Shown here piece after piece: positions 1 to 63,403 of a DNA stretch of 64,000 nucleotides (position 1 is the first letter of the stretch; each line of letters starts with the position of its first letter). The notes beneath the pieces are model-generated. The model ran no database searches and was not told where the DNA came from. It saw only the letters and a program-made list of their open reading frames with translations. The translations under genes were made by a program, and so were the position numbers. Source of the DNA: Haliotis cracherodii (Eukaryota); NCBI RefSeq assembly GCF_022045235.1, contig NW_027266343.1, forward strand, positions 51,336,001-51,400,000. Reading direction: 5' to 3'.

Positions 1-2707
1 ATAAGAGGAGGGATTTTATGCTTGATATATCTCCCACAAAATGTCACTTACCCGAGTTCATGTTTCAGGGGAATGTATCATTTGGGCTGCCACGAAAGGG
101 TTTGATGGCCATTTGAAGTACCATAATATCTGGAATTGGCTGTCTGTATTTCAATTTGCATTTTAAAAACAAGCAGCGAAGCAAATAAGCAGGAGTATCA
201 ATTTTGGTCAAAGCGTTCATTAACGGGATCAAGGGGTAGACAGTGTGCACTGTATTGAAATTCAAATGTGTGTGCTGTCCTTGAAAATGAGCGAAAGTTG
301 TATTCAGAATACAATCTACATGTTGTTATGGTGCCCTGTATAAATAATATCTGAGCTGCTGCAATGAAACAGCGAAAGCCATGGTGATGTAGAGCATCAA
401 AACAAATGTTGCAAGATTCTTACTGCTTTGGTTAGAAGGGAATGCATACAGTTGGAATTTCCATGACAGTAACATATCTTTACAGTTTATTAATAACACA
501 AACAAAACGATTGAATTCAAAAGTAACTATTAAATACGCTTGTCCGGGTGTAGCTTATCAAACTACAAATTATTTGTAATTTCCATCAAACATGTACTTC
601 TTGAATTGATGATGCAATTTAACATTTTGCATACTGTTTATGTAATTAATAGGAGAAGTATCTATATAGATATTTAGTTGTGTGTTTACTAACGACCTTC
701 CCTGTAGGCGCTATTTGTAGAATACATATTGATTAAATCAGACCGCGAAGTTTAAGATTCCGAACTGGATTGGTAGGATTGAAGATTACAATAAACAAAC
801 AAATAGCTAATATATCCCTTTTGTTGGATTACAACGCAAAAGTGACAATCATTTATCAATACAAAGGAGATTGCATTTGGTAACTGTAGAGAGTTATGTT
901 TAGCTGAATAAATGGTCCAACTTTAAAGCTTGTCATAAGTCTTTATAACAACAACCAGACTGTAAAAACAAGTCGTTTGATCATGTCTATCTTTGAAAAC
1001 ACCTTTGTGTTATACTTTAAGAGCATTTTCTTCTGAAAACACACGTCTTTACTTTTAGATGTACGGTTTTTCTGGGAAACCCTTATACACTTACACATTG
1101 TCAAACTGATTTGCGCGTGTTTTATTCTTGGTATGAGTTTTGGTTTAAACACGCCTTAAAAGAACACAGTCATCACTGTCACTACTGCTTCATCATGTCA
1201 AGGGTATACTTAAAGGGTAGAGGCGATTTATATACTTTCTTCTTTCTTCTAATGTTTAGAACCAAAGACTCACCCGAAGATTAAAACATGTTAAAGTGAG
1301 TTATTTGCAACAGTGATGAAGTATATATGCAAATGTATGAATGGCTGAGACATTGTCAAAAGACAACATTCTCCCAATATGGCACACGATGGAACTGACG
1401 GAGGAGCTCATGAAACACCCAACAAATATATACAAATATAAACTATTCATTAACACCTGGTGACATCAATCTTGTACAATCTTGCCTTTTACAACCAATG
1501 AAATCTGTTTCAGCAGATAATGGAGCCTGATTATTCTCTGGCGTTGACGATTTATGTAGTTCAAGGGTCATCATTGAATGATTATTATATCAATATTCAG
1601 GCGTTATCTATAGAAATTGAGATAACAAATTGAGTGATGCTCGTATTATTACAAATGCCTTGATAATGAAGTGTACAATTATCAAGATGATATGTTGAAA
1701 ATAAGAGAATTCTCTCAAGAAACGCAGTTGCAAATAAAAGCTACATAACCCTTTTCAGAATCATTCGAAACCTCTGCTCGAAGGAAAGACCATTGTACGA
1801 TTTGGACTTTAATGATCACACGCATCTGCGTATGAAAGACTAGCAGATAGTGATGATACCTGGCGGTTGCCAAAAAGTAAGCGTATCCTGCCCCAACGGT
1901 TCCTCCGTCACAAACACATACAAAGACAAGTCAACAAAGACGAGAAAACAAGCTGTTGTTCATATGTCAATCATGTTTTCAGAAGACATTGGTGTACTTT
2001 AAGCTTTTAACAGATATTACACGCATAAAAAGGTGTGGTGAGTATTCATAGTGACAGTCCCTTTGTGAGAAGAAACCAATATATGTACCTATCAGTTAGG
2101 GAATAAAGCTGTTGTAGTTTATTGTTATTGTACAGTAAGATAAATAAAATTCGGAGAGAATAATGTAGTATCTTGGGACTTCTGCAGTATATTCAGCAGA
2201 AGCTATTTTCTTGTGAGCAGGCTGCTGTATTACACGGAAACGGTTAGCATAGTTGACCCCGTGTGGTACAGTGCTACTGCTGTACTGTGGTGAGGCTGTA
2301 CTAGTGTGTTGCGTCAGTTTTCTGGTCTCTTGTTATGTCGTATCACACAGATGCATTATAATGTATGATGTATGTTGCTCCCTCATCATACATATACTGG
2401 ATACACACTTGTCAGACCGTTATCGAATATTTACTTGATATAGGTTAAACGTTGAGTATCGAGGACTGTTCGAATGCATTTAGACGATGCCAGAGAGAGT
2501 GTGTCTGTTTGCCACCTTTATATACGTTGTCTTGTACTTCTTTAATCGATGTTCATGTATACCAGCTCGCATGTGTACCCGTAGGGTGATAACCTCGGGC
2601 CCTTTGATGCGAAAAGAATGCTTATTTTACACCATTAAACTGAGGTGCGTTACTTACCTGGAAGTGGCCAGCCCAAGGTAAATCAATCACGTATAATTCA
2701 CAAATGG

Positions 2708-2743
2708 TATATATAAAGGATGGGGGAAACTGTTCCATCATCT
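2708..2743 (+). promoter_or_regulatory. Core promoter of the Gly-rich gene (TATA box + Inr-like TSS ~2740); present in all 15 units
   Basis: TATATATAAAGG at 2708-2719 and TCATCT at 2738-2743, about 28-30 nt downstream. A GTAAGT donor follows about 50 nt later. Confidence 0.8.
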
Positions 2744-2791
2744 CTTATTTTCACCTGCCGTTCAGACACAGATACGAGTCAAGACCAAACT
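2740..2791 (+). other. Non-coding exon 1 (5' UTR), copy 1; equivalent in all units
   Basis: Lies between the Inr-like site and the donor ACT|GTAAGT (intron starts 2792) and contains no ATG. The TSS is inferred. Confidence 0.7.
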
Positions 2792-3073
2792 GTAAGTACT
2801 ATTTTAAGGTTTGCTTTTGATATATATGTATACTTTTAATGTTTGATTCATCTGCTGCGCATCTGGCTGTTTTCAATCTTTATGTTGAGCCAATTCATAA
2901 AAGTACAAATATGTAACATAAAACGTTCTTGTAAATTGGGAAATATATGAATGCAGGTGAAAGTAAAACTGATAACATAATTCACAATGAGTGGTGTGAA
3001 CTGAATTTACCAGATGAGTAACGATAACATGCTATTTCCCTTTCTTGTCAACGATTTTCACGTTACTCAATAG
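2792..3073 (+). other. Intron 1 (282 nt, in 5' UTR), copy 1
   Basis: GTAAGT donor, AT-rich body, pyrimidine tracts and acceptor CAATAG|ATACTCAAAATG, 9 nt before the start codon. Confidence 0.75.
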
Positions 3074-3082
3074 ATACTCAAA

Positions 3083-3673
3083 ATGATGAAGATAGTCGCC
3101 GCTCTTGTTGCCTGCCTGGCTGTTACCGCCTTTGCCGAGCCTACCGGTCTGTATGGTGGAATTGGCGGGTTGAAAGGAGGACTGGGCGGAATTGGCTACG
3201 GAATGGGTGGATTGTACGGAGGCCTTGGAGGTCTGTACGGGGGCTATGGAGGTCTGTACGGAGGCATGGGAGGTCTATACGGAGGCGTGGGAGGTCTATA
3301 CGGAGGCATGGGAGGTCTATACGGAGGCATGGGAGGTCTGTACGGAGGACTTGGAGGCTATGGTGGTCTCTACGGCGGAATTGGAGGATACGGAATGGGA
3401 TTGGGAAAAGGTATTTCACAAAATATGATATCATTTGTTTATCGTATCCCACTTTCAGTCTCGTTTGCAAAATTATATAACTTACCTATGTGGTATTATT
3501 ATTTACGCGACAAAGCTGATGACATTTACAAAACATCTTTAAAATTATTCTCTGCTTTCTCTAATATTTGGTTTAGCTTATCATGCAGCTAGTTTCAAGA
3601 CTTCGTTGTGACTTATCCATATATCCCAACTTTATTCTACTATGTTTTTGTTTCAGGTATCGGCTATTATTGA
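3083..3673 (+). CDS. Secreted Gly/Tyr/Leu-rich GGLYGGX-repeat structural protein, copy 1; join(3083..3410,3657..3673), 114 aa
   Basis: AAAATG start context and signal peptide MMKIVAALVACLAVTAFA|EP, followed by (GGLYGGX)7. Phase-1 intron AAG|GTATTT...TTTCAG|GT; the last exon gives GIGYY-stop, which continues the Gly/Tyr composition. Confidence 0.92.
3206..3352 (+). repeat. Coding 21-nt minisatellite GGAGGTCTRTACGGAGGCNNN x7 (GGLYGGX; X=L,Y,M,V,M,M,L)
   Basis: Read directly from exon 2. Six repeats in copies 8 and 9. Confidence 0.97.
3411..3656 (+). other. Intron 2 (246 nt, phase 1), copy 1
   Basis: GTATTT donor and T-rich tract ending TTTCAG, with a sharp GC drop. 1-bp insertions occur here in copies 5, 12, 13 and 14, whereas the coding exons never show frameshifting indels. 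Confidence 0.88.
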
Positions 3674-3738
3674 TTTTTTATCACCTGCAGTGTGATGTTG
3701 GCTATCTATGTATATTCGCAAACCAATGGAATTGGTTC

Positions 3739-3744
3739 AATAAA
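3739..3744 (+). promoter_or_regulatory. Polyadenylation signal AATAAA, copy 1; in all units
   Basis: AATAAA 65 nt after the spliced stop codon, followed by T/GT-rich sequence (TTTGTTTG). Confidence 0.8.
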
Positions 3745-6700
3745 ATCTTGTCATATTTATTTACGCCTTGAAATTTGTTTGAGAATCTGAAAACTGAATT
3801 GAATGTTCACAATGGAAGAGTGATCTATGTTTCTCCATATTGTAAACTCTGGACATAGTACGTGTTGTAGACCAATATCCAAGCACTTAAATGATATTGC
3901 GTTTTACTTCAAGCTAAGATATCAACTACTGAAATGTGTATTAAGTTCCTGAGGAAACCGGACATGATGATAAGAGGAGGGATTTTATGCTTGATATATC
4001 TCCCACAAAATGTCACTTACCCGAGTTCATGTTTCAGGGGAATGTATCATTTGGGCTGCCACGAAAGGGTTTGATGGCCATTTGAAGTACCATAATATCT
4101 GCAATTGGCTGGCTGTATTTCAATTTGCATTTTAAAAACAAGCAGCGAAACAAATAAGCAGGTGTATCAATTTTGGTCAAAGCGTTCATTAACGGGATCA
4201 AGGGGTAGACAGTGTTCACTGTATTGAAATGCAAATGTGTGTGCTGTCCTTGAAAATGAGCGAAAGTTGTATTCAGAATACAATCTACATGTTGTTATGG
4301 TGCTTTGTATAAATAATATCTGAGCTGCTGCAATGAAACAGCGAAAGCCATGGTGATGTAGAGCATCAAAACAAATGTTGCAAGATTCTTACTGCTTTGG
4401 TTAGAAGGGAAATTCAATGCATACAGTTGGAATTTCCATGACAGTAACATATCTTTACAGTTTATTAATAACACAAACAAAACGATTGAATTCAAAAGTA
4501 ACTATTAAATACGCTTGTCCGGGTGTAGCTTATCAAACTACAAATTATTTGTAATTTCCATCAAACATGTACTTCTTGGTTTGATGATGCAATTTAACAT
4601 TTTGCATACTGTTTATGTAATTAATAGGAGAAGTATCTATATAGATATTTAGTTGTGTGTTTACTAACGACCTTCCCTGTAGGCGCTATTTGTAGAATAC
4701 ATATTGATTAAATCAGACCGCGAATTTTAAAATTCCGAACTGGATTGGTAGGATTGAAGATTACAATAAACAAACAAATAGCTAATATACCCCTTTTGTT
4801 GGATTACAACGCAAAAGTGACAATCATTTATCAATACAAAGGAGATTGCATTTGGTAACTGTAGAGAGTTAAGTTTAGCTGAATAAATGGTCCAACTTTA
4901 AAGCTTGTCATAAATCTTTATAACAACAACCAGACTGTAAAAACAAGTCGTTTGATCATGTCTATCTTTGAAAACACCTTTGTGTTATACTTTAAGAGCA
5001 TTTTCTTCTGAAAACACACGTCTTTACTTTTAGATGTACGGTTTTTCTGGGAAACCCTTATACACTTACACATTGTCAAACTGATTTGGGCGTGTTTTAT
5101 TCTTGGTATGAGTTTTGGTTTAAACATGCCTTAAAAGAACACAGTCATCACTATCACTACTGCTTCATCATGTCAAGAGCATACTTAAAGGGTAGAGGCG
5201 ATTTATATACTTTCTTCTTTCTTCTAATGTTTAGAACCAAAGACTCACCCGAAGATTAAAACATGTTAAAGTGAGTTATTTGCAACAGTGATTAAGTATA
5301 TATGCAAATGTATGAATGGCTGAGACATTGTCAAAAGACAACATTCTCCCAATATGGCACACGATGGAACTGACGGAGGAGCTCATGAAACACCCAACAA
5401 ATATATACAAATATAAACTATTCATTAACACCTGGTGACATCATTGATATTCAGTATATGTTTTAGTACAATCTTGCCTTTTACAACCAATGAAATCTGT
5501 TTCAGCAGATAATGGAGCCTGATTATTCTCTGGCGTTGACGATTTATGTAGTTAAAGGGTCATCATTGAATGATTATTATATCAATATTCAGGCGTTATC
5601 TATAGAAATTGTGATAACAAATTGAGTGATGCTCGTATTATTACAAATGCCTTGATAATGAAGTGTACAATTATCAAGATGATATGTTGAAAATAAGAGA
5701 ATTCTCTCAAGAAACGCAGTTGCAAATAAAAGCTACATAACCCTTTTCAGAATCATTCGAAACCTCTGCTCGAAGGAAAGACCATTGTACGATTTGGACT
5801 TTAATGATCACACGCATCTGCGTATGAAAGACTAGCAGATAGTGATGATACCTGGCGGTTGCCAAAAAGTAAGCGTATCCTGCCCCAACGGTTCCTCCGT
5901 CACAAACACATACAAAGACAAGTCAACAAAGACGAGAAAACAAGCTGTTGTTCATATGTCAATCATGTTTTCAGAAGACATTGGTGTACTTTAAGCTTTT
6001 AACAGATATTACACGCATAAAAAGGTGTGGTGAGTATTCATAGTGACAGTCCCTTTGTGAGAAGAAACCAATATATGTACCTATCAGTTAGGAAATAAAG
6101 CTGTTGTAGTTTATTGTTATTGTACAGTAAGATAAATAAAATTCGGAGAGAATAATGTAGTATCTGGGGACTTCTGCAGTATATTCAGCAGAAGCTATTT
6201 TCTTGTGAGCAGGCTGCTGTATTACACGGAAACGGTTAGCATAGTTGACCCCGTGTGGGACAGTGCTACTGCTGTACTGTGGTGGGGCTGTACTAGTGTG
6301 TTGCGTCAGTTTTCTGGTCTCTTGTTATGTTGTATCACACAGATGCATTATAATGTATGATGTATGTTGCTCCCTCATCATACATATACTGGATACACAC
6401 TTGTCAGACCGTTATCGAATATTTACTTGATATAGGTTAAACGTTGAGTATCGAGGACTGTTCGAAAGCATTTAGACGATGCCAGAGAGAGTGTGTCTGT
6501 TTGCCACCTTTATATACGTTGTCTTGTACTTCCTTAATCGATGTTCATGTATACCAGCTCGCATGTGCACCCGTAGGGTGATAACCTCGGGCCCTTTGAT
6601 GCGAAATGAATGCTTATTTTACACCATTAAACTGAGGTGCGTTACTTACCTGGAAGTGGCCAGCCCAAGGTAAATCAATCACGTATAATTCACAAATGGT

Positions 6701-7074
6701 ATATATAAAGGATGGGGGAAACTGTTCCATCATCTCTTATTTTCACCTGCCGTTCAGACACAGATACGAGTCAAGACCAAACTGTAAGTACTATTTTAAG
6801 GTTTGCTTTTGATATATATGTATACTTTTAATGTTTGATTCATCTGCTGCGCATCTGGCTGTTTTCAATCTTTATGTTAAGCCAATTCATAAAAGTACAA
6901 ATATGTAACATAAAACGTTCTTGTAAATTGGGAAATATATGAATGCAGGTGAAAGTAAAACTGATAACATAATTCACAATGAGTGGTGTGAACTGAATTT
7001 ACCAGATGAGTAACGATAACATGCTATTTCCCTTTCTTAACAAAGATTTTCACGTTACTCAATAGATACTCAAA

Positions 7075-7665
7075 ATGATGAAGATAGTCGCCGCTCTTGT
7101 TGCCTGCCTGGCTGTTACCGCCTTTGCCGAGCCTACCGGTCTGTATGGTGGAATTGGCGGGTTGAAAGGAGGACTGGGCGGAATTGGCTACGGAATGGGT
7201 GGATTGTACGGAGGCCTTGGAGGTCTGTACGGGGGCTATGGAGGTCTGTACGGAGGCATGGGAGGTCTATACGGAGGCGTGGGAGGTCTATACGGAGGCA
7301 TGGGAGGTCTATACGGAGGCATGGGAGGTCTGTACGGAGGACTTGGAGGCTATGGTGGTCTCTACGGCGGAATTGGAGGATACGGAATGGGATTGGGAAA
7401 AGGTATTTCACAAAATATGATATCATTTGTTTATCGTATCCCACTGTCAGTCTCGTTTGCAAAATTATATAACTTACCTATGTGGTATTATTATTTACGC
7501 GACAAAGCTGATGACATTTACAAAACATCTTTAAAATTATTCTCTGCTTTCTCTAATATTTGGTTTAGCTTATCATGCAGCTAGTTTCAAGACTTCGTTG
7601 TGACTTATCCATATATCCCAACTTTATTCTACTATTTTTTTGTTTCAGGTATCGGCTATTATTGA
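7075..7665 (+). CDS. GGLYGGX-repeat secreted protein, copy 2; join(7075..7402,7649..7665), 114 aa
   Basis: Same protein as copy 1; splice sites intact. Confidence 0.92.
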
Positions 7666-10600
7666 TTTTTTATCACCTGCAGTGTGATGTTGGCTATCTA
7701 TGTATATTCGCAAACCAATGGAATTGGTTCAATAAAATCTTGTCATATTTATTTACGCCTTGAAATTTGTTTGAGAACCTGAAAACTGAATTGAATGTTC
7801 ACAATGGAAGAGGGATCTATGTTTCTCCATATTGTAAACTCTGGACATAGTACGTGTTGTAGACCAATATCCAAGCACTTAAATGATATTGCGTTTTACT
7901 TCAAGCTAAGATATCAACTACTGAAATGTGTATTAAGTTCCTGAGGAAACCGGACATGATGATAAGAGGAGGGATTTTATGCTTGATATATCTCCCACAA
8001 AATGTCACTTACCCGAGTTCATGTTTCAGGGGAATGTATCATTTGGGCTGCCACGAAAGGGTTTGATGGCCATTTGAAGTACCATAATATCTGGAATTGG
8101 CTGGCTGTATTTCAATTTGCATTTTAAAAACAAGCAGCGAAACAAATAAGCAGGAGTATCAATTTTGGTCAAAGCGTTCATTAACGGGATCAAGGGGTAG
8201 ACAGTGTGCACTGTATTGAAATGCAAATGTGTGTGCTGGCCTTGAAAATGAGCGAAAGTTGTAGAAAGAATACAATCTACATGTTGTTATGGTGCTCTGT
8301 ATAAATGATATCTGAGCTGCTGCAATGAAACAGCGAAAGCCATGGTGATGTAGAGCATCAAAACAAATGTTGCAAGATTCTTACTGCTTTGGTTAGAAGG
8401 GAATGCATACAGTTGGAATTTCCATGACAGTAACATATCTTTACAGTTTATTAATAACACAAACAAAACGATTGAATTCAAAAGTAACTATTAAATACGC
8501 TTGTCCGGGTGTAGCTTATCAAACTACAAATTATTTGTAATTTCCATCAAACATGTACTTCTTGGTTTGATGATGCAATTTAACATTTTGCATACTGTTT
8601 ATGTAATTAATAGGAGAAGTATCTATATAGATATTTAGTTGTGTGTTTACTAACGACCTTCCCTGTAGGCGCTATTTGTAGAATACATATTGATTAAATC
8701 AGACCGCGAATTTTAAGATTCCGAACTGGATTGGTAGGATTGAAGATTACAATAAACAAACAAATAGCTAATATATCCCTTTTGTTGGATTACAACGCAA
8801 AAGTGACAATCATTTATCAATACAAAGGAGATAGCATTTGGTAACTGTAGAGAGTTATGTTTAGCTGAATAAATGGTCCAACTTTAAAGCTTGTCATAAG
8901 TCTTTATAACAACAACCAGACTGTAAAAACAAGTCGTTTGATCATGTCTATCTTTGAAAACACCTTTGTGTTATACTTTAAGAGCATTTTCTTCTGAAAA
9001 CACACGTCTTTACTTTTAGATGTACGGTTTTTCTGGGAAACCCTTATACACTTACACATTGTCAAACTGATTTGGGCGTGTTTTATTCTTGGTATGAGTT
9101 TTGGTTTAAACATGCCTTAAAAGAACACTGTCATCACTGTCACTACTGCTTCATCATGTCAAGAGCATACTTAAAGGGTAGAGGCGATTTATATACTTTC
9201 TTCTTTCTTCTAATGTTTAGAACCAAAGACTCACCCGAAGATTAAAACATGTTAAAGTGAGTTATTTGCAACAGTGATTAAGTATATATGCAAATGTATG
9301 AATGGCTGAGACATTGTCAAAAGACAACATTCTCCCAATATGGCACACGATGGAACTGACGGAGGAGCTCATGAAACACCCAACAAATATATACAAATAT
9401 AAACTATTCATTAACACCTGGTGACATCATTGATATTCAGTATATGTTTTAGTACAATCTTGCCTTTTACAACCAATGAAATCTGTTTCAGCAGATAATG
9501 GAGCCTGATTATTCTCCGGCGTTGACGATTTATGTACTTAAAGGATCATCATTGAATGATTATTATATCAATATTCAGGCGTTATCTATAGAAATTGAGA
9601 TAACAAATTTAGTGATGCTCGTATTATTACAAATGCCTTGATAATGAAGTGTACAATTATCAAGATGATATGTTGAAAATAAGAGAATTCTCTCAAGAAA
9701 CGCAGTTGCAAATAAAAGCCACATAACCCTTTTCAGAATCATTCGAAACCTCTGCTCGAAGCAAAGACCATTGTACGATTTCGACTTTAATGATCACACG
9801 CATCTGCGTATGAAAGACTAGCAGATAGTGATGATACCTGGCGGTTGCCAAAAAGTAAGCGTATCCTGCCCCAACGGTTCCTCCGTCACAAACACATACA
9901 AAGACAAGTCAACAAAGACGAGAAAACAAGCTGTTGTTCATATGTCAATCATGTTTTCAGAAGACATTGGTGTACTTTAGGCTTTTAACAGATATTACAC
10001 GCATAAAAAGGTGTGGTGAGTATTCATAGTGACAGTCCCTTTGTGAGAAGAAACCAATATATGTACCTATCAGTCAGGAAATAAAGCTGTTGTAGTTTAT
10101 TGTTATTGTACAGTAAGATAAATAAAATTCGGAGAGAATAATGTAGTATCTGGGGACTTCTGCAGTATATTCAGCAGAAGCTATTTTCTTGTGAGCAGGC
10201 TGCTGTATTACACGGAAACGGTTAGCATAGTTGACCCCGTGTGGTACAGTGCTACTGCTGTACTGTGGTGGGGCTGTACTAGTGTGTTGCGTCAGTTTTC
10301 TGGTCTCTTGTTATGTCGTATCACACAGATGCATTATAATGTATGATGTATGTTGCTCCCTCATCATACATATACTGGATACACACTTGTCAGACCGTTA
10401 TCGAATATTTACTTGATATAGGTTAAACGTTGAGTATCTAGGACTGTTCGAATGCATTGAGACGATGCCAGAGAGAGTGTGTCTGTTTGCCACCTTTATA
10501 TACGTTGTCTTGTACTTCCTTAATCGATGTTCATGTATACCAGCTCGCATGTGTACCCGTAGGGTGATAACCTCGGGCCCTTTGATGCGAAATGAATGCT

Positions 10601-60020: not shown

Positions 60021-63000
60021 TTACTCGAATCTATTAGTCGACAGTATATAATTTTGAACGCTGTTGAAGATGAGGTTATTGTGACTTGCAGATAGGGATA
60101 CATCACCGTAGAGAATATTTTGTATTGTACATGTAGTACCAGCTTTTATAATGTTAGCGAACATGATATTTCTGGGAATAGTGTAATTAGGACATTCAAG
60201 AAAAAAGTGTATGTTGTTTTCACATGGGTTTCCACAAGAGCAGGACAAAGTATCAGATAAATTTACTTTAAAGAGGTCTGCATTTAGGGAACTACAAGAA
60301 TGCCTTAGGCGTGTATGTAAAATATTAGCTCTACGGTTGCCGATTGAGAAGTATGGAGGTGGAGCTGTAATGGTTGTTTTAATCATATGTTTAAAATTTG
60401 ATAATGATGTTGCACTTCTGTATTCAGGGGGTAACTCATTCCATAATTTGATTGAAGAAGGTATAACTGATTGTTGGTATGTAACTGTTCGTGCTTGCGT
60501 CAAATTCAGATTATTCTGATTTCGTAACTCATATCTACTAAAAGTTGATACTTTGGGTAGTAACATGTCATGTAAATACGATGGGCATAGATTATTAACA
60601 ATACTGTAGATTGTACAAAGTTTTTTATTTGACCTTCTATAAGATAGTGATTCCCATCCTGTCTCAAAATATAAACTCGATCTTGAGGAGAATTTAGGGA
60701 GACCTGTTACTATGCGAGCGGCTTCGAGTTGAATCATTTCAAGTTTTTCGGAATTTTCATGACTGCAGTTGTCCCATACCTCTGAAGTATATTCTAATAT
60801 AGGCCTTATGAAAACAAGATAGACTTTGGACAGGGTTTGTCTATCAAGTAAATATTTAACGGTTCTTTACGAACAAATCATTTTGGAAGCTGAGCGGCAA
60901 ATTTTATCAACGTGAGTTGTCCACTTCATATCATGGGAGAGAGTAACGCCCATATGTTTGTGCGAGATAGATGCGCTAAGTGCGGTATTGTTATAAATAA
61001 TATCTGCAGTGCGGTTTTTACAATGAGTGAACAGAATAAATGTTGTTTTGTCCGGGTTAAACTTAACTAGCCATCTATTGGCCCAGGTATTGAGAAGCTC
61101 TAGATCACTGTTTAATCTGTGTTCTATCATTTGTAAGTGAAGAGATGATGTACCAATGGAAGTATCGTCTGCAAAAAGGCGAGAGGAATTCACTAGATTA
61201 TCAGCGAGATCGTTTATGTAGACCAGAAACAAAAAGGGACCTAATACCGAGCCCTGGGGGACACCGGCTCTGGTGAATTTCAAAGATGAAAAGCTGCCAT
61301 TTACAAAAACCTTTTGTCTCCTCTGACTAATATAGTCTTCTAACCATAGTAATAGCTTGCCCGTTACACCGTATTTTTGTAATTTATGAAGTTATCCTTT
61401 ATGCCAAACTCTGTCAAATGCTTTCGATATATCCCAAAATACCATACAATAGTATTCGTGCTTGTCAACAGATGAGACAATATCATTATAAATTTCTATT
61501 AATTGTGACGTAGTAGAATGTCCTGGTACAAAGCCGGATTGATATTTGTACAGGAGACTATTCATATTGAAATAGTTGTATAAGCGTTTAAAAACTAATA
61601 TCTCCTGTAGTTTTCCAAGAATAGATAATAAGCTAATTGGTCTGTAGTTTGAGGGTAATGCTTTGTCACCTTTCTTGTATAATGGCATGACGTCAGCAAG
61701 TTTCCAGTTTTCTGGAAAGATTGCTTCTTTTAAAGATCGATTTAAAATTATACATAATGGGATGGCAATACTGTCAGCCAAGGGTTTTAAGAGTCTAGGG
61801 TTTATATTATCTGGTCCGCTTGATTTATTGCAAGGTAGAGACTTTATGAGATCGCTTATTTCTAATTCAGTAACTGTGATATCCGAGAGAGAGGTTTCAC
61901 AACGTTGACTGAAATCTGGAAGCGGTTGATTTCCGTCATCAACATCACAAATAGAAACAAAATAGTTATTGAGTACATCAGCCTTTTCGACATCGGTAAA
62001 TGCTGTGGGTTTATTAAGGTCGGTACACAGAGGGGGGATACATGCTGGTGAATTAGCATTTTTGATGATGAATCTCAATAATTTCCAGTAGTTGGTACTG
62101 TTTGAGTTCAGATGTGTTTCCAACAAGCCGTTAATGTTGCTATAGTATTTTTCTTTGGCTATCTTTTTCATATTATTAAATTTGTTTCTTTGCTTTTTGT
62201 AGTTGGCAAGATCGCTTAGTTTACCAGTTCGTAATGCCTTTTTTCGATAGCGGTCTCTGGAGCGACGCTCCCTTCTGAGGTCATTATCGAACCATGGTTT
62301 GTCCGTTGGGCGAATAGTTACACACTTAGAGGGTATATAGTCGTGCATGTAGTTTTTCAGTTGGGAGTGGAATTTGTCACACATTTCATTAACGTCCAGA
62401 CATTCTTTAAAAAACTCGTTCCAATTTTTATTCTTAATTTGTATATTCATTTTTGCAAAGTTAGCTTGTTTGTAGAGCCATACGTTTCTTCTATATGACT
62501 TTTTTATATTAAGATATACATTAATAGATACGAAAACACCCCTGTGATCCGATACATCGGATCTAAAATCTAGTACACCGGATAAGGAACAATTACAATC
62601 ATTACTTACTAAAATAGGGTCAATAAGTTTAGCGAATGTGTTGTAATTCGTGTTGCTTCATTTATAATACTGCGTATAAGTTCTTGCGTGTTTTTATGTC
62701 ACGTAAATGGTGGATATTCGTATTGAAAAGATCTTCATTTAGGTCACCAACAAGGACGATATCACGGGAAACATCAAGTGCAGTTTCTATCATGTGCTCA
62801 AGAACAGTCCAATATGCGGTAGGGGTGTTGGGTGCGCGATAGGTGACACAAAGCAGAAAACTGTGCTGTGGTGAATAAACTTGAAACCCCATAGATTCAG
62901 AATTAATTACTTCCAAGTCTGTTCTATGCTTGACACTAAGTGAATTAGAAAAATATACAATTATACCACCTCCGAAAAAATCCCTGTCCCTCCTTTGAGG

Positions 63001-63403
63001 TTCATGGAAGAAATCAAGGAGCAGGTCGGCTGACTGAACGTTGGCGTCCAGGTGAGATTCAGTGAAGCATAACACATCGAAAACGCAGATATCATCGTAG
63101 ATTTTAGTCAATTTATGCCGGATACTTCTAATATTCAAGTGGAATATGCCTATATCATTGGTTGTGTTATTTTCTTTTGGGCCGGGATTTGGATGAATAT
63201 CACCAGCAAATGAACAATAGAAGGAGGGAGATTAATTTCATATTTACGCACAGGCCATACGTCATGACAAAACAAAGGTGCAGTATGTACATCGTGGAAT
63301 GCATTTTGAAATGGATATATACTACTTTGGTAAAAGCGTGACGCCTGAGGTAAGTTGGCATACATTTATTATAAAATAATCCAATCGTCGCCCTGTACGA
63401 CAT
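60021..63403 (-). pseudogene. LINE ORF2 (2A-like leader + APE endonuclease + reverse transcriptase), disrupted
   Basis: ORF pieces 61392-62450, 60867-61283 and 60021-60737 share one frame, separated by in-frame TAA at 61392-61394 and 60867-60869. Frameshifts occur near 63209, 62667 and 62634. Confidence 0.93.
63178..63240 (-). other. 2A/StopGo-like peptide coding sequence (KLISLLLLFI-AGDIHPNPG|P) immediately upstream of the APE domain
   Basis: The minus strand at 63207-63178 reads GCT GGT GAT ATT CAT CCA AAT CCC GGC CCA, in frame with HLNIRS. The Leu-rich run joins it if one T in ATTTGCT is removed. Confidence 0.8.

What the first reader, a model, noticed from the sequence alone, without database searches (positions are those of the whole stretch)
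3083..3673. Mature protein is an almost pure Gly-Tyr-Leu-Met polymer: candidate new biomaterial or coacervate protein
Seen: after AFA|EP the 96-aa chain has 52 G, 15 Y, 14 L, 5 M, 4 I, 2 K and one each of V, E, P and T, with no Cys, His, Asp or Arg. Known: GGY/GGLY modules occur in squid suckerins, GYGGL in silkmoth chorion, GGLGY in lamprin, Gly/Tyr tracts in pearl-oyster shematrins and Gly/Met tracts in scallop abductin. This protein lacks the Ala/His beta-sheet blocks of suckerins, the basic RKKKY tail of shematrins and any chitin-binding domain. Inference: a self-assembling or phase-separating protein cross-linked through Tyr (DOPA/dityrosine). A Gly-rich antimicrobial role, as in spider ctenidins, is an alternative.
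Basis: partly seen in the sequence, partly recalled or inferred. Interest (0 to 1): 0.7.

Follow-up and report, generated by a model that had tools for sequence, protein, structure and literature searches.

The report
Mass-copied abalone glycine-tyrosine protein gene
This is a real, spliced abalone gene for a small protein made mostly of glycine, tyrosine and leucine, present in about 60 near-identical copies; the protein is predicted to be secreted and floppy, and likely gets cross-linked into a tough organic layer such as the outer skin of the young shell, though its tissue is untested.

Summary
Observation confirmed: the spliced frame (3083-3410 + 3657-3673) gives 114 aa, and the 96-aa mature chain has exactly the stated composition. 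The gene is one unit of a ~3,987-bp tandem array (15 copies in the window, 29 in the array, 30 more in a second array, about 63 in all). It belongs to a family of at least 102 Gly/Tyr genes. Homologues are abalone-only; H. asinina has its own homogenised arrays. Public contigs join both introns. The first 150 coding bases do not differ between arrays whose introns differ by ~6%, so the protein is under constraint. The model is disordered and near-neutral at seawater pH. Best reading (0.55): a likely periostracum or young-shell scleroprotein precursor, cross-linked through tyrosine and amplified for dosage. It resembles abalone Has-tsfgr1 and the snail Cepaea Gly-rich-3. Tissue, coacervation and cross-linking are untested; an antimicrobial role is unlikely. 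The scan noted these arrays before on neighbouring DNA (e1-9197086, e1-9540137). Known kind of protein with unusual gene organisation.

The parts
2708..2717 (+). TATA box (TATATATAAA)
   Evidence: Sequence; matched within 1 mismatch in 59 of 59 spliced copies
2740..2791 (+). Non-coding exon 1 (start approximate, inferred from the TATA box; no ATG)
   Evidence: Contig joint 2791>3074 GT..AG in runs X1 and X2, sides 25 and 18 nt
2792..3073 (+). Intron 1, 282 nt, GT..AG
3074..3410 (+). Exon 2: 9-nt leader, ATG at 3083, predicted signal peptide (3083-3136), N-terminal segment and GGLYGGX heptad repeats (21-nt period, 3213-3348)
3411..3656 (+). Intron 2, 246 nt, phase 1, GT..AG
   Evidence: Contig joint 3408>3655 (cut +2) in X1 (side 33), X2 (26) and X10 (50)
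3657..3673 (+). Coding part of exon 3: tail (G)IGYY and TGA stop
   Evidence: same tail in H. asinina P0001
3739..3744 (+). Polyadenylation signal AATAAA
1..59906 (+). Head-to-tail array of ~3,987-bp units, one gene per unit; 15 ATGs at 3083, 7075, 11061, 15047, 19033, 23021, 27007, 30993, 34958, 38922, 42909, 46895, 50882, 54869, 58857; 15 of 15 frames intact (107 or 114 aa). It continues ~67 kb upstream (29 copies in all).
60650..63300 (-). LINE-like reverse-transcriptase element just past the array end (bounds approximate; not part of the gene)
   Evidence: PF00078 at 61395-62657, E 1.6e-12

Best explanation
This is a spliced abalone gene, present in about 60 near-identical copies, whose small Gly/Tyr/Leu protein is predicted to be secreted and disordered and is likely a bulk precursor that gets cross-linked through tyrosine into a tough organic layer, most likely the periostracum or organic sheet of the larval/juvenile shell. 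Shown: gene anatomy, splicing in public contigs, copy number, constraint on the coding sequence, and arrays in a second abalone species. Predicted: signal cleavage at AFA|EP, no stable fold, net charge about 0 at pH 8.1. Inferred, in order: (1) unequal crossing-over builds and homogenises the arrays, and selection keeps them for transcript dosage during a short secretory burst; (2) the chain self-associates through evenly spaced Tyr/Leu/Met on Gly spacers; (3) a separately secreted peroxidase (or tyrosinase) joins Gly-flanked tyrosines into an insoluble film; (4) the cells are those of the shell field or mantle edge.
For: Anatomy and composition. Both introns are joined in public contigs. 59 of 60 copies examined at three loci keep an open spliced frame, and repeat-number changes stay in frame. 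The first 150 coding nt show 0 majority differences between the two arrays against ~6% in both introns (about 9 expected, P about 1e-4). Divergence rises with distance along the arrays, and the arrays form separate clades. H. asinina has its own homogeneous copies: 10 listed accessions on one contig, and one gene model that fuses 16 signal peptides. The model has pLDDT <50 over residues 18-109. 13 of 15 Tyr are followed by Gly. Analogues with known expression: Has-tsfgr1 (114 aa, 17-aa signal, G/L/Y repeats, 5-residue Tyr-ending tail) is in the trochophore shell field and juvenile mantle edge and off in larger animals (PMC2034539). Cepaea Gly-rich-3 (98 aa; G 51%, Y 19%, L 10%) is in the periostracal groove with a peroxidase (PMC7894901). 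Lymnaea Gly/Tyr proteins are proposed peroxidase substrates (PMC6007483). Paralogues on C18 carry the tsfgr1 motif GGYGLGL and a 17-aa signal, and run X1 holds spliced contigs of both genes.
Against: No tissue or stage is known: the runs are coded, and their RNA status is a guess apart from the splice joints. They hold at most 0.43 of the words, so they are relatives or paralogues rather than this copy. Has-tsfgr1's sequence was not seen (figure not held), so kinship rests on its description; the window protein lacks GGYGLGL and GYKGY. Waite's DOPA consensus peptides are matched no better than in shuffles. No family motif was found in the adult H. laevigata shell-proteome supplements, although those shells were bleached or sand-blasted, which would likely strip periostracum. 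Constancy of the 5' coding part could come from gene conversion as well as selection; the 3' coding end differs by 6% between arrays. An unchecked note (e1-8580391) reports a similar near-identical array of Nodal genes in this genome, so amplification need not reflect a special dosage need here.
Confidence: 0.55

Rival explanations
1. Same chemistry, different structure: a scleroprotein of another secreted part (larval operculum, jaw plates, radular membrane, epidermal cuticle or an embryo envelope).
For: All sequence evidence for secretion, disorder, Tyr patterning and amplification fits equally well. The family has several distinct subfamilies that could serve different tissues. The nearest Atlas clusters for P0001 are arthropod cuticle-like proteins, though all score 0.80 or less, i.e. 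leads only.
Against: The gastropod analogues with known expression in the papers read are in shell-forming tissue. No Pfam chitin-binding domain and no His, unlike squid beak proteins.
Confidence: 0.25
2. A non-covalent, suckerin-like or coacervate material held by Tyr stacking and hydrogen bonds, without enzymatic cross-links.
For: The heptad closely resembles the suckerin amorphous module YGYGGLYGGLYGGLGYG quoted in PMC11931252. Aromatics are evenly spaced and the charge is near neutral.
Against: No Ala/His-rich crystalline block, which that review names as the other module of suckerin designs. The model shows no strands, although a low-confidence model says little. An 8.8-kDa chain with no obvious pH switch.
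Confidence: 0.08
3. A glycine-rich antimicrobial peptide like spider ctenidins/acanthoscurrins, amplified for defence.
For: The mass (8.8 kDa) is in the ctenidin range (8.8-9.6 kDa, PMC6784228). Automatic names 'ctenidin-1-like' and 'neuropeptide-like protein 31' appear on homologues. Tandem expansion is common for immune genes (general knowledge).
Against: Net charge +0.8 at pH 7 and +0.07 at pH 8.1. The chain ends in YY with no terminal Gly for amidation, whereas those peptides are cationic and amidated. Copies are homogenised rather than diversified.
Confidence: 0.07
4. The gene is functional but the copy number is neutral drift in a recombination-prone region (or partly an assembly artefact).
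For: Some adjacent copies are identical over 1.5 kb. Several units of the C1 77.5-Mb array look frameshifted. Other tandem arrays are noted in this genome (e1-8580391, unchecked).
Against: Copies differ in a graded way and carry unique mobile-element insertions. The two arrays have no shared flanks beyond ~280-nt repeats. 59 of 60 frames are open. Arrays recur in H. asinina.
Confidence: 0.05

Closest known systems
Uncharacterised Haliotis RefSeq models: H. asinina XP_067657837-842 and 846-849 ('glycine-rich protein-like'), XP_067657820; H. rubra XP_046565582 ('ctenidin-1-like'); H. cracherodii XP_071095135/146/156 ('shematrin-like', 'spidroin-1-like')
   Same: Near-identical signal peptide and EPTGLYG start in H. 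asinina, same GLGKGIGYY tail, tandem copies.
   Different: Names are automatic and no function is known. The repeats diverge between species (H. asinina has His, Pro, Phe and a less regular repeat). Several models wrongly fuse many array units into one long protein.
[quoted passage not shown]
   Same: 114 aa, signal peptide, over 52% Gly with Leu and Tyr, 7-residue motif, 5-residue tail ending in Tyr, same genus.
   Different: Motif GGYGLGL and tail GYKGY versus GGLYGGX and GIGYY. The H. asinina counterpart of the window gene is P0001, so tsfgr1 is at most a paralogue. No arrays were reported in the passages read.
Cepaea Gly-rich-2/-3 and Lymnaea sfc-6/-7/-8 (PMC7894901, PMC6007483)
   Same: Small secreted proteins, over 50% Gly and 13-19% Tyr (Cepaea); expressed at the mantle edge near a peroxidase; proposed dityrosine substrates.
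   Different: No detectable homology (not among hits). The Lymnaea proteins match Waite's peptides within one mismatch; this one does not.
Pearl-oyster shematrins
   Same: Secreted Gly-rich repeats, terminal Tyr, tandem genes (five on two scaffolds, PMC4759782).
   Different: Bivalve lineage. The report is of five genes, not ~60 near-identical ones.
Squid suckerins
   Same: The GGLY repeat is almost the same as the amorphous module.
   Different: No Ala/His crystalline module; no homology detected; likely convergent.

Membership tests
Has-tsfgr1-like abalone Gly/Leu/Tyr proteins | Signal peptide plus a mature chain over 52% Gly with Leu and Tyr repeats | tested here: met
   54% G, 16% Y, 15% L; hydrophobic N-terminus
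Has-tsfgr1-like abalone Gly/Leu/Tyr proteins | GGYGLGL repeat motif and GYKGY tail (tsfgr1 itself) | tested here: not met
   Best matches have 1 and 2 mismatches; GGYGLGL is exact only in the C18 paralogues. So not the tsfgr1 orthologue.
Has-tsfgr1-like abalone Gly/Leu/Tyr proteins | Sequence homology to Has-tsfgr1 (signal peptide, gene structure) | tested here: inconclusive
   tsfgr1 sequence not obtained (figure not held; not found). The window gene and the GGYGLGL-bearing C18 genes share the signal motif and a phase-1 last intron.
Has-tsfgr1-like abalone Gly/Leu/Tyr proteins | [quoted passage not shown] | not testable with these tools
   Runs are coded with no tissue record
Shematrins | C-terminal RKKKY-type basic tail | tested here: not met
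Shematrins | Secreted Gly-rich repeats ending in Tyr | tested here: met
   description
Suckerins | GGLY-type amorphous module | tested here: met
   8 GGLYGG; module quoted
Suckerins | Ala/His-rich beta-sheet module bounded by Pro | tested here: not met
   No Ala or His, one Pro in the mature chain
Gly-rich antimicrobial peptides (ctenidin/acanthoscurrin) | Cationic and C-terminally amidated | tested here: not met
   Charge +0.07 at pH 8.1; ends in YY with no amidation Gly
Gly-rich antimicrobial peptides (ctenidin/acanthoscurrin) | Antimicrobial activity, haemocyte origin | not testable with these tools
   Needs assay
Quinone-tanned/dityrosine scleroprotein precursors (periostracum type) | Tyr flanked by Gly | tested here: met
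   13 of 15 Tyr are followed by Gly, 4 are GYG; criterion
Quinone-tanned/dityrosine scleroprotein precursors (periostracum type) | Waite DOPA consensus peptides within one mismatch | tested here: not met
   2-3 mismatches, reached by 64-99% of shuffles
Quinone-tanned/dityrosine scleroprotein precursors (periostracum type) | DOPA or dityrosine in the native material | not testable with these tools
   Needs biochemistry

The most novel reading that the evidence does not exclude
Abalones build the first organic shell (larval pellicle/periostracum) from a 100-plus-gene family of minimal Gly/Tyr heptad proteins kept in histone- or rDNA-like homogenised arrays to meet a secretory burst of a few hours. 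The protein is a natural 'amorphous-module-only' counterpart of suckerin that phase-separates in seawater and is then locked by dityrosine. This would give the main structural protein of a gastropod periostracum in pure, expressible form.
Probability: 0.2. Interest if true: 0.7.

Novelty: new variant of a known kind. Interest (0 to 1): 0.42.

Why it matters
The periostracum and larval organic shell are insoluble, and similar Gly-rich candidates in Lymnaea were picked computationally rather than detected by proteomics. A short, nearly pure, massively amplified candidate gives a direct handle: one probe, one tryptic peptide, one recombinant protein. The arrays are a clean case of concerted evolution of a structural gene in two abalone species, and public annotation garbles them into fused 'spidroin' or 'PE-PGRS' models. 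If the role is larval, it bears on hatchery survival and acidification studies. As a material it would test what the suckerin amorphous module does on its own.

Tried and rejected
Pfam: 0 families for the window protein, P0001 and P0002. Rfam on window 1-8000: 0 matches. ESM Atlas with P0001: best score 0.80, lead only. Structure prediction gave pLDDT 45 with no fold, so no fold search was run. No complex prediction was run. Homologue searches: 3, 6 and 6 hits and 7 hits in 1.84 billion representatives. The only credible ones are Haliotis (P0017 is unnamed but carries the family signal peptide); the others (claw keratin, crayfish, Rubrivivax, metagenome proteins) look like composition matches. 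Low complexity limits sensitivity, so restriction to abalones is not proven. No RNA holder is listed on record. Contig depth over exon 2 was about 5e5-1e6 in X1 and X2 against tens between genes, and about 4-40 in X3 and X10. The C18 paralogue's exon showed 2e4-2e5 in X1, X2 and X4 and 7 in X3. The tool warns that contig depth cannot rank genes, so this is only a hint of strong, sample-restricted, shared expression. Waite DOPA peptides were rejected. A search for shared upstream 9-mers among 7 subfamily representatives gave only TATA-like words. Haplotype duplication of the two arrays was rejected: flanks share only ~280-nt repeats. Literature: 'tsfgr1'+'Haliotis' gave 1 paper; 'GGLYGG' gave 14 papers, 13 listed, none on abalone by title; Haliotis+genome+tandem+glycine-rich+expanded gene family gave 0; searches listed no paper on these arrays by title or abstract start. 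Subscription papers are not searched. PMC4944945 (Has-GRBP, CL10contig2) describes different repeats; PMC1676022 and PMC3517415 have no 'glycine' in the main text.

Full report
Observation. ATG 3083 to 3410, a 246-nt phase-1 GT..AG intron, and 3657-3673 give 114 aa; the 96-aa chain after AFA|EP has G52 Y15 L14 M5 I4 K2 E1 P1 T1 V1. The core is a 21-nt repeat of 6.5 copies coding GGLYGGX. GGLYGG occurs 8 times against a maximum of 3 in 2,000 shuffles, and Tyr spacing is more even than in 99.3% of 10,000 shuffles. The gene has a TATA box at 2708, a non-coding first exon ending at 2791, and AATAAA at 3739. Public contigs join 2791>3074 (X1, X2; short sides of 25 and 18 nt) and the second intron (X1, X2, X10; sides 33, 26, 50), so it is spliced in related animals. 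The runs are coded and hold at most 0.43 of the words, so they show relatives or paralogues and give no tissue.

Surroundings. Composition repeats every 4 kb: the window is a head-to-tail array with 15 of 15 open frames, 11 of them coding the same protein. The array holds 29 copies on contig C80; a second array on C2 holds 30 (unit mostly about 4.2 kb); one copy stands alone at C80:48.73 Mb. Of these 60, 59 keep an open spliced frame and one is cut by a 371-nt insertion with a target-site duplication. An exact 32-base search finds 60 places, three of them outside those loci, giving about 63 close copies. A protein search shows further clusters on C80, C1, C3 and C18. In the regions fetched, 102 places have the family signal peptide followed by a Gly-rich start; this is a lower bound, and their frames were not all checked. 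Ten of 13 representatives gave a predicted phase-1 last intron and a short tail ending in Tyr.

Evolution. Over the 1.5 kb upstream, copies differ by 2.0% within the C80 array, 1.1% within C2 and 7.8% between them; difference grows with distance along each array, and each array forms its own clade. This is the pattern expected from unequal crossing-over. Introns differ by about 6% between arrays, while the first 150 coding bases show no majority difference (about 9 expected). The last 53 coding bases differ by 6%, so constraint is clear only at the 5' end, and gene conversion may contribute. Length variants (107-149 aa) all stay in frame. Unique insertions, graded divergence and unrelated flanks argue against an assembly artefact.

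Relatives. Credible hits are Haliotis proteins with automatic names. The H. asinina counterpart shares the start and the GLGKGIGYY end but has a different middle. It is listed under 10 accessions on one contig, and another model there fuses 16 near-identical signal-peptide units. So two abalone species each carry homogenised arrays with their own repeat sequence.

Protein. 8.8 kDa, pI 8.2, charge +0.07 at pH 8.1, no membrane-spanning stretch in the mature chain. AlphaFold gives a helix only for the signal peptide and pLDDT below 50 for residues 18-109. There is no Pfam match. Thirteen of 15 Tyr are followed by Gly.

What is known. PMC2034539 (outline, passages and section 5 read; figure not held) describes Has-tsfgr1: 114 aa, 17-aa signal, Gly/Leu/Tyr repeats of GGYGLGL, tail GYKGY, expressed at the edge of the trochophore shell field and the juvenile mantle edge and lost in larger animals; the protoconch appears between 9 and 11 h. 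The window protein lacks those motifs, but C18 paralogues carry GGYGLGL and a 17-aa signal, and run X1 holds spliced contigs of both genes. PMC7894901 (passages; 12 of 14 supplements searched) places Cepaea Gly-rich-3 (G 51%, Y 19%, L 10%) in the periostracal groove with a peroxidase. PMC6007483 (passages and section 27) proposes dityrosine cross-linking of such proteins. PMC11931252 (passages) quotes a suckerin amorphous module close to this heptad, paired with an Ala/His block that is absent here. PMC6784228 (passages) describes Gly-rich antimicrobial peptides as cationic and amidated. PMC4759782 (passages) reports five tandem shematrin genes and raises dosage as a reason. PMC6003135 (passages; supplements searched): six family motifs in all 27 held files and a seventh in 24 of 27 gave only unrelated hits. 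The shells were bleached or sand-blasted adults, file 3 is not held, long cells are cut and wrapped lines can hide motifs, so this speaks only weakly against a role inside adult mineral layers. PMC4944945, PMC1676022 and PMC3517415 were seen as passages and add nothing on this gene.

Mechanism. Shown: a spliced, constrained, highly multiplied gene. Predicted: a secreted, disordered, near-neutral chain. Inferred: bulk secretion, self-association through evenly spaced Tyr/Leu/Met, and oxidative joining of tyrosines into an insoluble layer at the shell edge (0.55). Against: tissue unknown, Waite's DOPA peptides not matched, and kinship to tsfgr1 not aligned. Rivals are another secreted structure (0.25), a non-covalent suckerin-like material (0.08), an antimicrobial peptide (0.07) and neutral copy number (0.05).

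Verdict. The protein is of a known kind, the small secreted Gly/Tyr proteins of mollusc shell-forming tissue, but is not a shematrin, suckerin or ctenidin by the features tested, nor tsfgr1 itself. What stands out is the scale and homogeneity of the gene arrays in two species. I found no paper on them (open-access library only). The scan had already noted the adjoining part of this array and a like array elsewhere in this genome; those notes agree but are not independent support. Interest 0.42.

Noticed in passing
G000:C80 about 51,301,900-51,311,500 (L018-L019): A ~9.5-kb insertion interrupts one array unit; it has a 1,487-aa open frame with RT, RNase H and integrase domains (LTR-retroelement-like). 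Observed only.
   Followed up: partly
G000:C80:51,318,735 (L020): 371-nt insertion with a target-site duplication of about 15 nt inside exon 2 of one copy, SINE-like by its size and start; the only broken copy of 60 examined.
   Followed up: partly
L052-L055 (G000:C80:56.198-56.232 Mb): A paralogous cluster in mostly divergently oriented pairs about 1.3 kb apart, the pair itself repeated every ~6.8 kb; closest to H. rubra 'ctenidin-1-like'.
   Followed up: partly
L059-L065 and L072-L078 (G000:C1:76.40-76.46 and 77.47-77.54 Mb): Two more arrays (units about 4.2 and 3.6 kb) with a 9-residue GGLYGGYGM repeat; several units of the second look frameshifted (real decay or assembly error). Public models fuse up to 7 such units into 'spidroin-1-like' proteins.
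   Followed up: partly
L081, L082, L083, L084 (G000:C18:9.20-9.24 Mb): Four paralogues with a 17-aa signal and GGYGLGL: best candidates for the Has-tsfgr1 orthologue; the last intron of one is joined in X1 and X4.
   Followed up: partly
G000:C80:51,288,843 and 51,292,945: Two 149-aa copies have Tyr-to-Cys changes in two heptads, the only Cys-bearing mature chains among 59.
   Followed up: no
window 2806-3073: A second GT..AG joint (2806>3072, cut +2) in X1 suggests an alternative exon-1 donor or a paralogue's longer first exon.
   Followed up: no
L024:3964-5640 (-): IgGFc-binding domain frame (PF17517, E 7.8e-20) about 30 kb past the array end.
   Followed up: no
window 61395-62657 (-) and G000:C80:51.40-51.41 Mb: LINE-like elements break the last array unit; pieces of the unit continue beyond them.
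   Followed up: partly
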